Virus record (IMG/VR): IMGVR_UViG_2574179916_000005
Location: 1 to 11,983 of that record
Direction: 5' to 3' (one strand)
DNA from: a virus
Taxonomy: Duplodnaviria; Heunggongvirae; Uroviricota; Caudoviricetes
DNA length: 11,983 nt
Positions 6,001 to 9,000 of this stretch are shown here, piece after piece. The stretch's first letter is position 1; each line of letters starts with the position of its first letter. Position numbers: made by a program.

Positions 6001-9000
6001 ATAACGTCCCGCCTGTATGGCTGGGAGACAGCCAGCTTGACGAACTGGCAGACCTTAAAATCATCGACGATGGTCGCTATTGTGTCCGGCTGTACAAGGC
6101 AGGCCACATCAAGCCGTCAAATATTAATGCCATCGGGCAAAAGCTGGCGACGGCAGGTGTACGGGATGCGAATTATTACCCCGAGGGAATGCACAGCCAG
6201 AAGCGGGAGGAGTGGCGCGAATATCTGGAGCGTGAGCGCCAGAAAAAAATGTCCGGAGAGATACCGGAGGAAGAAAAAAACGAACAGCGAAAAACCACGC
6301 TACCAATGAGTATTGGATCTGCAGGGTACGACACACAGCTTGATTATGTCGTTAAGGGCGTGATTCCGGCTAATTCGTTGTGCAGCACATACGGCGCGAG
6401 CGGTTCCTATAAATCGTTCCTTGCGTGTTCCTGGGCGTGTCATGTTGCCACTGGTCGCCACTGGGGAGGCCGCAGGGTGGCGCATGGTTCGGTGATGTAT
6501 GTTGTCGGTGAAGGTGGCATTGGTGTCCCCCGTCGTATCAAGGCATGGGAAATCGTTAATGATGAACGGGTGAAAAATCTGTACCTGGTAAACCGCCCGA
6601 TTTTTCCGGCAGCCCCGCTTGATGTTGATGAAATGGTCATCGCTTCCCGCCAGGTTGAACGGGAAACGGGTAAACCGGTACGCATGATTATTCTGGATAC
6701 GCTGGCGCGTTGCTTTGGCGGTAATGATGAAAATGACGCGCGGGATATGGGGGCGTTTATCCGTGGATGTGACGAACTGAAACGCCGCACAGGGGTCACG
6801 GTGCTGGTGGTTCACCATTCCGGCAAGGATGAAACAAAGGGAGCGCGTGGTTCCAGTGCATTTCGTGCATCTCTGGACGCTGAATACCGTATTCGCCGGG
6901 AAGGTGCAGACAGCGAAGCTCTGGTTATCTCCTGCACCAAAATGAAGGACGCGGAGGAACTGAAAGAGGCTGCATATGATTTACGTGTGGTGGAGCTTTT
7001 TACCGACACTGACGGGGAGTTAATCACGTCGCTGGTGGTTGTGGATAAGCCGCGCCCGCCTGTTGAACTGGAACGCATCGAGGAAGCCGGGAACAAGACG
7101 GAGAATCATGCCGCGCTATGGGGATGTATCCGTTCACGCACACAGCGTGGCGATAAATGCACTATTCCGTTGTTGCGCGATGATATGAAAAAGCTGGGGT
7201 ATGAGATGAAACACTTCCGGCGCTGGCTGTACAAGCTGGAAGGTGATGGCGTTATTGCTATTGACGGTGATGACGTGCGCCCACTGTAAAAAGTGGGTAG
7301 TAAAAGTGGGGAGTGTGGGGAATTTAACAAAATTGAAACGTGATTCCCCACTTTCCCACCTGTATATACCCCAAAAAGTGGGGAGTAAAAAACACATTGA
7401 AAAACAGTACATTAGAGTCACAAAAAAAAGAAGTGGGGAGACGTTGGGTAATTTCAAAAAGTGGGGAACAAAAGTGGGGAGTGGTGAGGAATGACCAGAA
7501 AAACCAGAGATAAAACAGCGCCAAAATATCGCGCATTAGACATGACAGAGCACGCCTTAAAGGTGGCAATCAGAACAATAGACCGCCATGCCGGAGAAGG
7601 ATACGCGAAAACACATCCCGAACTGATAAGCGCATTCATGACAGCGGCGGCGGCAAACTTTGCCACGCTGACAGAGCTGGAGATAGCCGAAGCGGAACAG
7701 GTGACAACCATCAACGTTAAAACCGGAGAGCAGACAGCATGACAGCACAGATAGCGGCTTACGGGAGGCTGGCGACTGACCCGCAGTTAAAGACCACCAG
7801 CAAAGGGACACAAATGGCGATGGCGAGTATGGCGGTCCCACTGCCATGCAGTCAGGCAGATGACGGAACGGCGACGATGTGGTTATCCGTCCTGGCGTTT
7901 GGCAGACAGGCCGATGCGCTGGCCAGACACCACAAAGGCGAACTGGTGAGCGTGGCGGGTAACATGCAGGTAAGCCAGTGGACAGGCCAGAACGGGGAAA
8001 CGCGGCAGGGCTGGCAGGTTATCGCAGACAGTGTAATCAGTGCGCGAACGGCGCGACCGGGCGGCAAAAAAGGCCAGCAGGGCCAGGCTACTGACGCACT
8101 GAACAGGGCAAAACAACAGGCGGGGAATGATGATCCGTACGGGGATAACATACCGTTTTAAGCAACGAGTAACAGAAGCCGGAGTAATCCGGCTTTTTTA
8201 TGGGTCCTTCCGGTGTAGTGACCTGCCACGGGGCGGGAGCGTCGCGGGAAAAGGCTGGTTTTTGCATTTTCATGGCGGCGGCAGCATGTGTGATAATTTA
8301 TTGATAATTAAAAATTATTTCTGTTTTCACCTGTACAATATTTTTTTCTCCCTGTCATTAGACCAGTTTGCAATTAATTGAAATATATAAATAAATTTGT
8401 TTTTCACCTGCCAGATGGAGTTGCCTGTGTAAAACGTGTTCAGATGGCGGGATATTTATGCCGGATTCTCTCCGGCATTTTTTGTGTCTGAATCTTATTA
8501 ATCTATTTTTATGATAGAAATGTGTTTATCTACCACATTTATCGATCAATAATGTGCACAGTTTAGTCAGTAAGAGGAAGTTACTGTGAGTTGTATTAAT
8601 GACCTGAACACGGGCGATATCAGGGGTGGTTCCGTTCATCTGGATGCGCAGACCGTTATGCGCCTTAAGCAGTACAGGATCGACCATATAAATCATCATC
8701 CTGACAAACCATTACCAGGTGTGGCGCAGATTGTCAGACATGCCGTAAACACCTGGCTTAATCAGAATGGTTTTGCATCGGTGGGGGAATAATGAATCGC
8801 TGGTACACCATTAAGGCGGCGGATGTGCGTGGAGCGGCGGATATATCTATCTATGAGGAGATTGGCGGCTTCGGTGTTACTGCAAAGCAGTTCGCGGAAG
8901 ACCTGAAAGCCCTTGGCGATGTTTCACATATCAATCTGAGGATCCATTCACCTGGTGGTGATGTGTTTGAAGGCATCGCCATCTATAACCTGCTACGGAA

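What the first reader, a model, noticed from the sequence alone, without database searches (positions are those of the whole stretch)
7290..7484. Iteron origin placed between rep and ssb inside the operon
At least seven AAGTGGGGA copies with irregular spacing (74, 55, 27 and 13 bp), one inverted, flank an A-rich tract. This is the likely Rep-binding origin. Reading it in frame creates the spurious repetitive ORF at 7243-7494.
Basis: seen in the sequence. Interest (0 to 1): 0.45.

Follow-up and report, generated by a model that had tools for sequence, protein, structure and literature searches.

The report
Replication origin of a phage satellite
The repeats are real and are almost certainly the replication origin of a phage-satellite island, read by the helicase gene just upstream; this kind of origin is already known, so the finding is correct but ordinary.

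Summary
The 201-bp gap between the rep stop (7289) and the next ATG (7491) contains 6 exact AAGTGGGGA, 7 exact GTGGGGA cores and 4-5 degenerate copies. One exact copy is inverted, and the copies flank a 74% A+T tract. Chance predicts 0.1 exact 9-mers in the whole window.

The window is a phage-inducible chromosomal island (PICI) embedded in a prophage terminase gene. Gram-negative PICIs are already known to place an iteron/AT-rich origin immediately 3' of rep.

New support for this instance:
- About 70 Rep homologues across Enterobacterales carry the same architecture directly after rep.
- Rep residues ~122-471 and the repeats swap together as one cassette against two other helicase/iteron cassettes in the same backbone.
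- The Rep C-terminus is a confidently predicted winged helix.
- One residue at the start of its recognition helix tracks iteron base 4 in 79 of 79 scorable loci (H-G, N-A, S/G-C, K-G).
- A prediction from this rule held on 8 of 9 further loci.

The ORF at 7243-7494 is spurious. Nothing was shown experimentally. I rate it a new member of a known kind. One less ordinary point: the helicase core is RecA/SF4-type, whereas characterised satellite Reps are SF3 or SF6.

The parts
5578..5877 (+). DUF4222 gene. It overlaps the rep start by 4 nt and precedes rep in all three cassette types examined.
   Evidence: Pfam PF13973, E 2e-24. Same synteny in L001, L003, L084, L085, L086-L095 and L097.
5874..7289 (+). 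rep: a 471-aa initiator-helicase. It has an N-terminal domain (aa 1-~121) shared with other rep alleles, a RecA/SF4-type ATPase core (aa ~140-400) and a C-terminal winged-helix domain (aa ~401-471).
7074..7286 (+). The part of rep encoding the winged-helix domain: helices 410-424, 431-440 and 448-457, and a beta-hairpin at 461-470.
7212..7214 (+). Codon CAC = His447, at the N-terminal cap of the predicted recognition helix. It is the inferred reader of iteron core base 4.
   Evidence: Residue versus iteron base over 79 scorable loci: H-G 12/12, N-A 26/26, S-C 8/8, G-C 1/1, K-G 32/32. The last 74 aa of P0062 equal the window's except for H447N, and its iterons are GTGAGG.
7291..7321 (+). Left iteron array of three direct copies: AAGTGGGTA, AAGTGGGGA and GTGTGGGGA.
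   Evidence: The homologous positions are conserved in alignment A2.
7322..7344 (.). Spacer 1, 78% A+T in this window. It contains most of the least stable 20-mer of the region (7320-7339).
   Evidence: It is not AT-rich in most other loci (median 49%).
7345..7359 (-). Inverted iterons: an exact copy at 7345-7353 and a degenerate core (GTGGGAA) at 7353-7359.
7345..7384 (.). Conserved core module: inverted iteron, then 26 bp containing TGTATATA (TATATA at 7363-7368), then a direct iteron.
   Evidence: 72 such modules in 70 loci. Core start-to-start distance is 30 bp in 60, 32 bp in 11 and 39 bp in 1. TATATA is at least 80% conserved whatever the iteron class.
7376..7384 (+). Direct iteron that closes the core module.
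7385..7430 (.). A-rich tract (74% A+T, 59% A). It is the conserved AT-rich element and the proposed unwinding region.
   Evidence: The equivalent spacer has a median of 74% A+T and is more AT-rich than spacer 1 in 64 of 69 distinct modules.
7431..7490 (+). Right iteron array. Exact copies lie at 7431, 7459 and 7472. Degenerate copies lie at ~7441-7450 (read by eye) and at 7481 and 7484; the last overlaps the ribosome-binding site of the next ORF.
7243..7494 (+). Mechanical ORF (GTG start, 83 aa) produced by reading the repeats. It is not a gene.
   Evidence: No plus-strand open frame overlapping the gap by >=120 nt remains in L088 and L086, and only a shorter one (14070-14240) in L085. A2 shows 1-bp indels in these relatives. 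Not annotated by RefSeq in L001, L085 or L097.
7491..7742 (+). 83-aa ORF of unknown function (PHROG 1231). Its first ~17 codons belong to the swapped rep-ori cassette.
   Evidence: breakpoints at window 7530-7543.
7739..8161 (+). ssb, the single-stranded-DNA-binding protein of the replication module.
   Evidence: Pfam SSB, E 7e-16; TIGR00621.

Best explanation
The 201-bp gap at 7290-7490 is the vegetative replication origin of a phage-inducible chromosomal island (here a helper-embedded PICI). The product of the rep gene directly upstream reads it.

Proposed mechanism; every step is inferred, none shown:
1. After the satellite is induced and excised, Rep monomers bind the 7-9-bp iterons (AA)GTGGGGA through a C-terminal winged-helix domain. 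His447 at the start of the recognition helix reads core base 4.
2. Binding to the left array, the divergent inverted/direct pair around TGTATATA and the right array concentrates Rep, and its RecA/SF4-type ATPase core assembles into rings.
3. The DNA opens in the adjacent A-rich tract (7385-7430) and/or at TATATA.
4. Rep loads itself as the replicative helicase.
5. The satellite's SSB coats the single strands and the host replisome takes over.

Shown here: the repeats, their conserved position and architecture, their physical coupling to the rep 3' part, the winged-helix fold prediction, and the residue-to-base covariation.
For: - Enrichment: 6 exact 9-mers against 0.10 expected; AT-rich centre.
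- Context: int, alpA-like HTH, Bro-N, DUF4222, rep, ssb and late genes, all co-oriented. RefSeq relatives lie next to tRNA-Pro or inside a prophage terL gene. This is the PICI / helper-embedded PICI layout of PMC6092414 and PMC10111431.
- Published precedent: Gram-negative PICI origins lie immediately 3' of rep, with two iteron sets flanking an AT-rich region, and the EcCICFT073 pri-rep-ori drives plasmid maintenance. EcCIO42, a reference PICI of that paper, carries an 89%-identical Rep and the same gap architecture.
- Conservation: of 80 Rep-homologue loci from other Enterobacterales, nearly all have repeats starting at the rep stop. 70 loci (these plus E. coli relatives and the window) share the inverted-iteron / TATATA / direct-iteron module at a fixed 30 or 32 bp.
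- Cassette behaviour: compared with an otherwise 95-96% identical satellite (L084), homology stops at window 6238 and resumes at 7543. Compared with EcCICFT073 it stops at 6244 and resumes at 7530. The alternative cassettes are SF3 helicases with their own iterons, ACTGTTCACC x9 and GGTAGAYA.
- The downstream gene varies (83-aa ORF, ProQ, a 257-aa ORF, a capsid gene) while the repeats stay with rep.
- Winged-helix C-terminal domain.
- Specificity code. The rule was derived on the genome-contig loci and then tested on new E. coli, Salmonella and Enterobacter loci. It held in 8 of 9 and also in EcCIO42. Homologous iteron positions switch G to A together in alignment A2.
- A 16,971-bp circular Klebsiella record is a satellite with this Rep family and the same origin architecture.
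Against: - No experiment: replication, Rep binding and melting are all untested for this Rep family. PHROGs lists the family as 'unknown function'.
- Covariation between two features 100-300 bp apart could partly reflect linkage and recombination of whole cassettes. One locus (L090) has an N-type Rep with mixed GTGAGG/GTGGGG iterons.
- The full-length AF2 model is poor in parts of the ATPase core (mean pLDDT 66).
- Iterons on the two sides of the main A-rich tract point the same way. This differs from the opposite-orientation rule reported for SaPI origins.
- In this window the least stable 20-mer is in spacer 1, not in the A-rich tract, so the melting site is uncertain.
- A relative with a rep pseudogene keeps intact iterons (L001), so intact repeats do not prove current function.
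Confidence: 0.85

Rival explanations
1. The repeats are mainly an operator array. Rep's winged helix, or another regulator, binds them to control transcription running from rep into the small ORF, ssb and the late genes. Replication would start elsewhere or depend on the helper prophage.
For: The repeats lie inside a co-oriented gene string with no predicted terminator. A highly conserved TATATA sits between divergent repeats. The last degenerate repeat overlaps the ribosome-binding site of the next ORF. Helper-embedded PICIs can be replicated passively by the helper.
Against: No sigma-70-like promoter was found on either strand in 7100-7700. The repeats stay with rep when the downstream gene differs. 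They are exchanged together with the helicase part of rep. The equivalent region of EcCICFT073 is required for plasmid maintenance. A regulatory side-role is not excluded.
Confidence: 0.07
2. The repeats are a packaging recognition site (pac/cosB-like) bound by the satellite's small-terminase-like DUF1441 protein.
For: Small terminases often bind short repeated sites. The satellite encodes a DUF1441 protein at 10906-11448.
Against: The same repeats occur in relatives that have no DUF1441 gene (L001 and EcCIO42). The repeat sequence tracks a Rep residue, not the terminase. The repeats lie 3.4 kb from the DUF1441 gene and directly abut rep.
Confidence: 0.03
3. ORF 7243-7494 is a real gene for a repetitive small protein, and the DNA repeats simply reflect its peptide repeats.
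For: An 83-codon open frame with a GTG start exists. It is open in four close relatives.
Against: The frame is lost in L088 and L086 and truncated in L085, relatives that carry 1-bp indels in A2. One repeat is inverted. Other frames on both strands are equally open. RefSeq annotates no gene there. The repeats persist in distant loci whose sequence differs.
Confidence: 0.01

Closest known systems
Gram-negative PICI replication origins (EcCICFT073 pri-rep-ori; EcCIO42), Fillol-Salom et al. 2018, PMC6092414
   Same: Same element type and gene order (DUF4222, rep, gap, small ORF, ssb). The origin is immediately 3' of rep and has two iteron sets around an AT-rich region. The EcCIO42 Rep is 89% identical and its gap has the same layout.
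   Different: The functionally tested EcCICFT073 initiator is an SF3 D5_N/DUF5906/Pox_D5 protein with GGTAGAYA iterons; here the core is RecA/SF4-type. EcCIO42 has Asn at position 447 and GTGAGG iterons, whereas the window has His and GTGGGG. I could not see Fig. 2a of that paper, so I do not know whether this iteron is printed there.
SaPI Rep-ori modules (Rep1, Rep2, PriRep5), PMC9371898
   Same: A single protein acts as both initiator and helicase. A C-terminal winged helix reads short iterons. There are 6-12 iterons directly after rep with an AT-rich centre, and no separate loader.
   Different: SaPI Reps are SF3 or SF6 (AAA+), and the paper names SF4 only as the class of prokaryotic relatives of these helicases. 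The core here is RecA-fold, RepA/T7 gp4/Twinkle-like, which by analogy with RSF1010 RepA would move 5' to 3' (my own knowledge). Iteron orientation around the main AT tract differs.
IncQ plasmid RSF1010 replication (RepA helicase, RepC initiator, oriV)
   Different: From my own knowledge, RSF1010 uses a separate iteron-binding protein (RepC), three 20-bp iterons and its own primase. Here the DNA-binding domain is fused to the helicase and the iterons are 7-9 bp.
Satellite phage P4 alpha protein with ori and crr
   Same: A satellite encodes one multifunctional initiator that binds short repeats. A P4-alpha-like cassette with ACTGTTCACC repeats occupies this exact slot in a sister element (L084).
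   Different: The alpha protein is a primase plus SF3 helicase, and P4 needs a second repeat cluster (crr) kilobases away (my own knowledge). This window has a single cluster.

Membership tests
PICI/SaPI-type Rep-ori module | Origin lies immediately downstream of the replication-initiator gene | tested here: met
   The repeats start 2 nt after the rep stop. The same holds in about 70 homologous loci.
PICI/SaPI-type Rep-ori module | Several short iterons in two sets flanking an AT-rich region | tested here: met
   There are 3+2+1 copies to the left and 3-5 to the right of the 74% A+T tract at 7385-7430.
PICI/SaPI-type Rep-ori module | [quoted passage not shown] | tested here: inconclusive
   Copies on both sides of the main A-rich tract are direct. 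Opposite orientation is seen only around spacer 1 (7322-7344) and around TATATA.
PICI/SaPI-type Rep-ori module | The initiator combines a helicase ATPase with a C-terminal winged-helix DNA-binding domain | tested here: met
   AAA_25 core. The C-terminal domain model has pLDDT ~95 and matches winged-helix domains. These are predictions only.
PICI/SaPI-type Rep-ori module | Iteron sequence is cognate to its own Rep | tested here: met
   Residue 447 versus iteron base 4 agrees in 79/79 scorable loci. Cassette co-transfer is seen. One mixed locus, L090. The evidence is comparative, not biochemical.
PICI/SaPI-type Rep-ori module | A cloned rep-ori drives Rep-dependent autonomous replication | not testable with these tools
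   Shown only for EcCICFT073, which has a different helicase class.
PICI/SaPI-type Rep-ori module | Host element is a PICI (int, alpA, unidirectional genes, no lysis or tail genes) | tested here: met
   It is embedded in a prophage terL gene, as described for helper-embedded PICIs.
IncQ RSF1010 RepA/RepC/oriV system | RepA-type RecA-fold helicase | tested here: met
IncQ RSF1010 RepA/RepC/oriV system | Separate iteron-binding initiator and ~20-bp iterons | tested here: not met
   The DNA-binding domain is fused to the helicase. The repeats are 7-9 bp.
P4 alpha / ori-crr replicon | SF3 primase-helicase initiator | tested here: not met
   No D5_N, DUF5906 or Pox_D5 match. These are present in the sister cassettes L003 and L084.
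P4 alpha / ori-crr replicon | A second distant iteron cluster (crr) | tested here: not met
   Outside 7291-7490 there is only one isolated core copy (3378-3384), which is within chance.
Classical iteron plasmids (pPS10, RK2, R6K type) | 17-22-bp iterons with DnaA boxes and a non-helicase double-winged-helix initiator | tested here: not met
   The repeats are 7-9 bp. There is no DnaA box with up to 1 mismatch, and no IHF site or GATC, in 7200-7560. The initiator carries a helicase core.

The most novel reading that the evidence does not exclude
Rep represents a class of self-loading initiator-helicase not yet described for phage satellites: a RecA/SF4-type (RepA, T7 gp4, Twinkle-like) motor fused to an origin-reading winged helix. 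In this reading a single recognition-helix residue (His, Asn, Ser or Lys at position 447) sets origin specificity base by base. One amino-acid change plus concerted iteron change would then create orthogonal replicons that let related satellites coexist.
Probability: 0.5. Interest if true: 0.5.

Novelty: new member of a known kind. Interest (0 to 1): 0.33.

Why it matters
As an origin call it mainly improves annotation. It removes a false ORF and marks the cis-acting site that any engineered or mobilised version of this satellite must keep.

The comparative by-products are more useful:
- A natural series of Rep/iteron pairs differing at one residue and one base gives a directly testable recognition rule for origin specificity and incompatibility between co-resident satellites.
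- Three unrelated helicase-plus-iteron cassettes share one slot, one N-terminal domain and one upstream DUF4222 gene, which shows how satellites exchange replicons.
- An SF4-type self-loading helicase, if confirmed, would extend the SaPI Rep model, so far SF3 and SF6, to the bacterial helicase superfamily.

Tried and rejected
- A literature search for the iteron string returned only unrelated eukaryotic papers.
- The supplements of PMC6092414 contain no iteron sequences. The figure that shows them is not held.
- The promoter/terminator scan and the scan of the whole window against Rfam found nothing. This argues against a promoter or a known RNA, and also means the C4/isrK immunity RNAs reported for some PICIs are absent here.
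- Scans for DnaA boxes, IHF, Fis and GATC sites in 7200-7560 found nothing.
- A 10-nt match (CAGTACATTA) between the A-rich tract and the AT-rich part of the EcCICFT073 origin looked like shared ancestry. It is not conserved even in close relatives, and BLAST finds no homology there, so I dropped it.
- Foldseek with the full-length model gave only RecA-fold and spurious periplasmic-binding-protein hits because the model is poor. The C-terminal domain had to be modelled alone.
- A search for att direct repeats of at least 10 nt between 1690-1960 and 11780-11983 found none.
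Full report
**The observation.** The region was read directly. Exact AAGTGGGGA occurs six times in the 11,983-bp window, all between 7304 and 7480, with one copie on the minus strand (7345-7353). 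Dinucleotide-preserving shuffles give 0.10 copies on average and never reached six. A seventh copy with one mismatch starts at 7291. The 7-bp core GTGGGGA occurs seven times in 7306-7480, including 7315-7321, and four more cores differ by one base. The copies fill the 201-bp gap between the stop of a 471-codon gene (5874-7289) and the ATG of an 83-codon ORF (7491-7742), which is followed by ssb (7739-8161). GC content falls to 0.33-0.43 across the gap.

**What the window is.** Pfam finds the following:
- a tyrosine integrase (1933-3171);
- a weak HTH match in a small ORF (3184-3387), which RefSeq annotates as a helix-turn-helix regulator in relatives;
- a Bro-N protein (3445-4023) and a DUF4222 protein (5578-5877);
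- an AAA_25 'RepA family' helicase (5874-7289) and SSB;
- a ClpP-capsid fusion (8792-10705) and a DUF1441 small-terminase-like protein (10906-11448).

To the left of the integrase lie a second DUF1441 gene and the N-terminal ATPase half of a gpA-type large terminase (282-1771). In two complete E. coli genomes with the same element, the missing terminase half, the portal and the capsid genes of a lambdoid prophage follow the right end. The window is therefore a roughly 10-kb satellite inserted in the terL gene of a prophage. This is the 'helper-embedded PICI' configuration described in PMC10111431. Relatives of the replication module also sit in ordinary PICIs next to tRNA-Pro, in EcCIO42 and in strain 'clone D i14', the strain for which PMC6092414 lists EcCIDi14.

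**What is already known.** PMC6092414 states that in Gram-negative PICIs the region immediately 3' of the replication-initiator gene is the origin. [quoted passage not shown] For SaPIs, Rep is both initiator and helicase. Its C-terminal winged helix binds 5-6-nt iterons, and 6-12 iterons lie directly after rep around an AT-rich centre. I tested whether this particular repeat field behaves that way.

**Conservation with rep.** A scan of one genome per species returned 80 loci encoding Rep homologues at 49-72% identity, from Xenorhabdus, Pectobacterium, Serratia, Morganella, Pantoea, Kosakonia, Citrobacter and others. In nearly all of them, short repeats begin at or just before the rep stop codon. 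The layout is shared:
1. two or three direct repeats;
2. a spacer of roughly 20-35 bp;
3. one inverted repeat;
4. a short segment containing TATATA;
5. one direct repeat;
6. an AT-rich tract of about 45-55 bp;
7. three or four direct repeats.

The inverted-repeat / TATATA / direct-repeat module was found 72 times in 70 loci (these loci plus E. coli relatives and the window). Its core start-to-start distance is 30 bp in 60 cases and 32 bp in 11, the latter including the window and its E. coli relatives. TATATA is at least 80% conserved whatever the repeat sequence. The tract after the module has a median of 74% A+T, against 49% for the spacer before it. The gene after the gap varies (83-aa ORF, ProQ homologue, a 257-aa ORF, a capsid gene), yet the repeats stay. 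The repeats therefore belong to rep, not to the downstream gene.

**Cassette exchange.** E. coli B1-56 carries the same satellite at 95-96% identity, but its initiator is a D5_N/DUF5906/Pox_D5 (SF3) protein. Homology to the window stops at 6238, inside rep after codon ~121, and resumes at 7543, 52 nt into the next ORF. Against EcCICFT073 the breaks fall at 6244 and 7530. The exchanged block is therefore Rep residues ~122-471 plus the whole repeat field. Each alternative block brings its own repeats: ACTGTTCACC nine times in B1-56 and GGTAGAYA/CTGTCTACC in EcCICFT073. All three alleles share the Rep N-terminal ~120 residues and the upstream DUF4222 gene.

**Residue-to-base covariation.** Across the loci the repeats fall into classes that differ after GTG: GTGGGGA, GTGAGGA, GTGCGGC, GTGGGGGA and GTGGGGGC. 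In the Rep alignment, the residue just before the third helix (K-x-F-x-R-W-L) follows the class:

| Residue x | Iteron class |
|---|---|
| His | GTGGGG |
| Asn | GTGAGG |
| Ser | GTGCGG |
| Lys | GTGGGGG |

Some Reps share a near-identical core with the GTGCGGC group, differ only in the last ~45 residues, and have GTGGGGA repeats. E. coli Rep variants turned out to be polymorphic His/Asn at this position, so I predicted that the Asn variants would have GTGAGG repeats. I then fetched ten further loci:
- Four of the five Asn loci have GTGAGG.
- All three His loci have GTGGGG.
- A Ser locus has GTGCGGCA.
- A Gly locus, for which the rule made no prediction, has GTGCGG/GTGCGC.
- EC42405 (same satellite backbone) and EcCIO42, both Asn, have GTGAGG.

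Over all loci with at least three copies, the table reads H-G 12/12, N-A 26/26, S-C 8/8, G-C 1/1 and K-G 32/32. The last 74 residues of one Asn variant (P0062) are identical to the window's except for H447N. In an alignment of seven E. coli origins, the homologous repeat positions switch G to A together. One Salmonella locus (L090) is mixed and looks recombinant. Linkage alone does not explain a concerted change at six or seven separate sites matched to one codon, so I take this as comparative evidence that the winged helix reads the repeats. It remains an inference.

**Rival readings.**
- Promoter or regulatory array: no sigma-70-like promoter or terminator is predicted in 7100-7700. No Rfam family matches anywhere in the window. 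No DnaA, IHF, Fis or GATC sites occur in the gap.
- Packaging site: this does not fit, because relatives without a DUF1441 gene keep the repeats.
- Real gene: relatives at about 90% identity carry 1-bp indels in the gap. The plus-strand open frame is gone in two of them and truncated in a third. Several other frames are equally open, and RefSeq annotates nothing there. ORF 7243-7494 is spurious.

**Uncertainties.**
- The melting site is not settled. The least stable 20-mer in this window is in spacer 1 (7320-7339), followed by two in the A-rich tract, whereas across loci the A-rich tract is the conserved AT-rich element.
- Repeat orientation around that tract differs from the SaPI rule.
- The role of the shared N-terminal domain is unknown; a partial PHROG 'DNA primase' match is only a hint.
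- A 16,971-bp circular Klebsiella 'plasmid' record is a satellite with this Rep family and the same origin layout. This is compatible with autonomous replication but does not prove it.

**Verdict.** The origin as found here is present in 53 of 5,426 complete E. coli genomes, at best 96.8% identity, and the closest Rep in the protein collection is 93% identical. The finding is correct and belongs to a known kind. It is a His/GTGGGGA specificity variant of the EcCIO42-type PICI origin, driven by an SF4-type initiator-helicase that has been catalogued but, as far as the searched literature shows, not characterised.

Noticed in passing
window 282-1771 and 1933-11930; L084 and L085: The satellite sits inside the large-terminase (gpA) gene of a lambdoid prophage. 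The window holds the prophage DUF1441 gene and the terL ATPase half to the left of int. In E. coli B1-56 and EC42405 the terL nuclease half, the portal and the capsid genes follow the right end. This matches the published 'helper-embedded PICI' configuration (PMC10111431).
   Followed up: partly
window 8792-10705 and 10906-11448, versus 282-776: The satellite carries its own ClpP-capsid fusion and its own DUF1441 small-terminase-like gene. The latter is about 72% identical in DNA to the helper prophage's copy, measured against that copy in L084 (window 10730-11393). This suggests late genes captured from a helper.
   Followed up: no
L084 13621-13920; L003 10997-11284: Three unrelated helicase-plus-iteron cassettes occupy one slot of the same backbone: RepA/SF4 with GTG[G/A]GGA, SF3 with GGTAGAYA, and a P4-alpha-like SF3 with ACTGTTCACC x9. 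All keep the same Rep N-terminal ~120 aa and the upstream DUF4222 gene.
   Followed up: partly
window 5874-6238 (Rep aa 1-121): The N-terminal domain is shared at 65-80% identity with primase-type Reps. It is predicted as an alternating beta/alpha fold at pLDDT 74-91, has invariant E17, D43 and D65, and has no Pfam or NCBIfam match. Its function is unknown; it is possibly primase-related (partial match to PHROG 864).
   Followed up: partly
L005 5020-5350 (Xenorhabdus beddingii): Two origin units of different iteron class (GTGAGG, then GTGGGG) lie in tandem after a single Asn-type rep.
   Followed up: no
L087, L089, L090 and L092, about 270 bp after the first origin unit: A second 'inverted iteron / TATATA / direct iteron / AT-rich' module lies in a longer gap before a ProQ-like gene. 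Its iteron class again matches the Rep residue.
   Followed up: no
L090 2590-2830 (Salmonella, protein P0069): An Asn-type Rep is paired with a mixed GTGAGG/GTGGGG/GTGAGC repeat field. This is the only clear exception to the residue-base rule, and it looks like a recombinant origin.
   Followed up: no
L001 9075-10490 (E. coli ETEC1734): rep is annotated as a pseudogene with an internal stop, yet the adjacent iteron field is intact.
   Followed up: no
L096 (CP018459.1, K. pneumoniae, 16,971 bp circular); NZ_CP148328.1 (E. coli, 10,790 bp): Records deposited as small plasmids. CP018459.1, which I inspected, is a satellite with integrase, capsid and terminase genes and this Rep family. NZ_CP148328.1 was seen only as a hit row: a 10.8-kb record with a primase-type Rep sharing the N-terminal domain, next to a DUF4222 gene.
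   Followed up: partly
window 3378-3386, minus strand: An isolated TAGTGGGGA lies at the 3' end of the small HTH ORF (3184-3387). It is within chance expectation for the 7-mer core (1.5 copies per window).
   Followed up: yes
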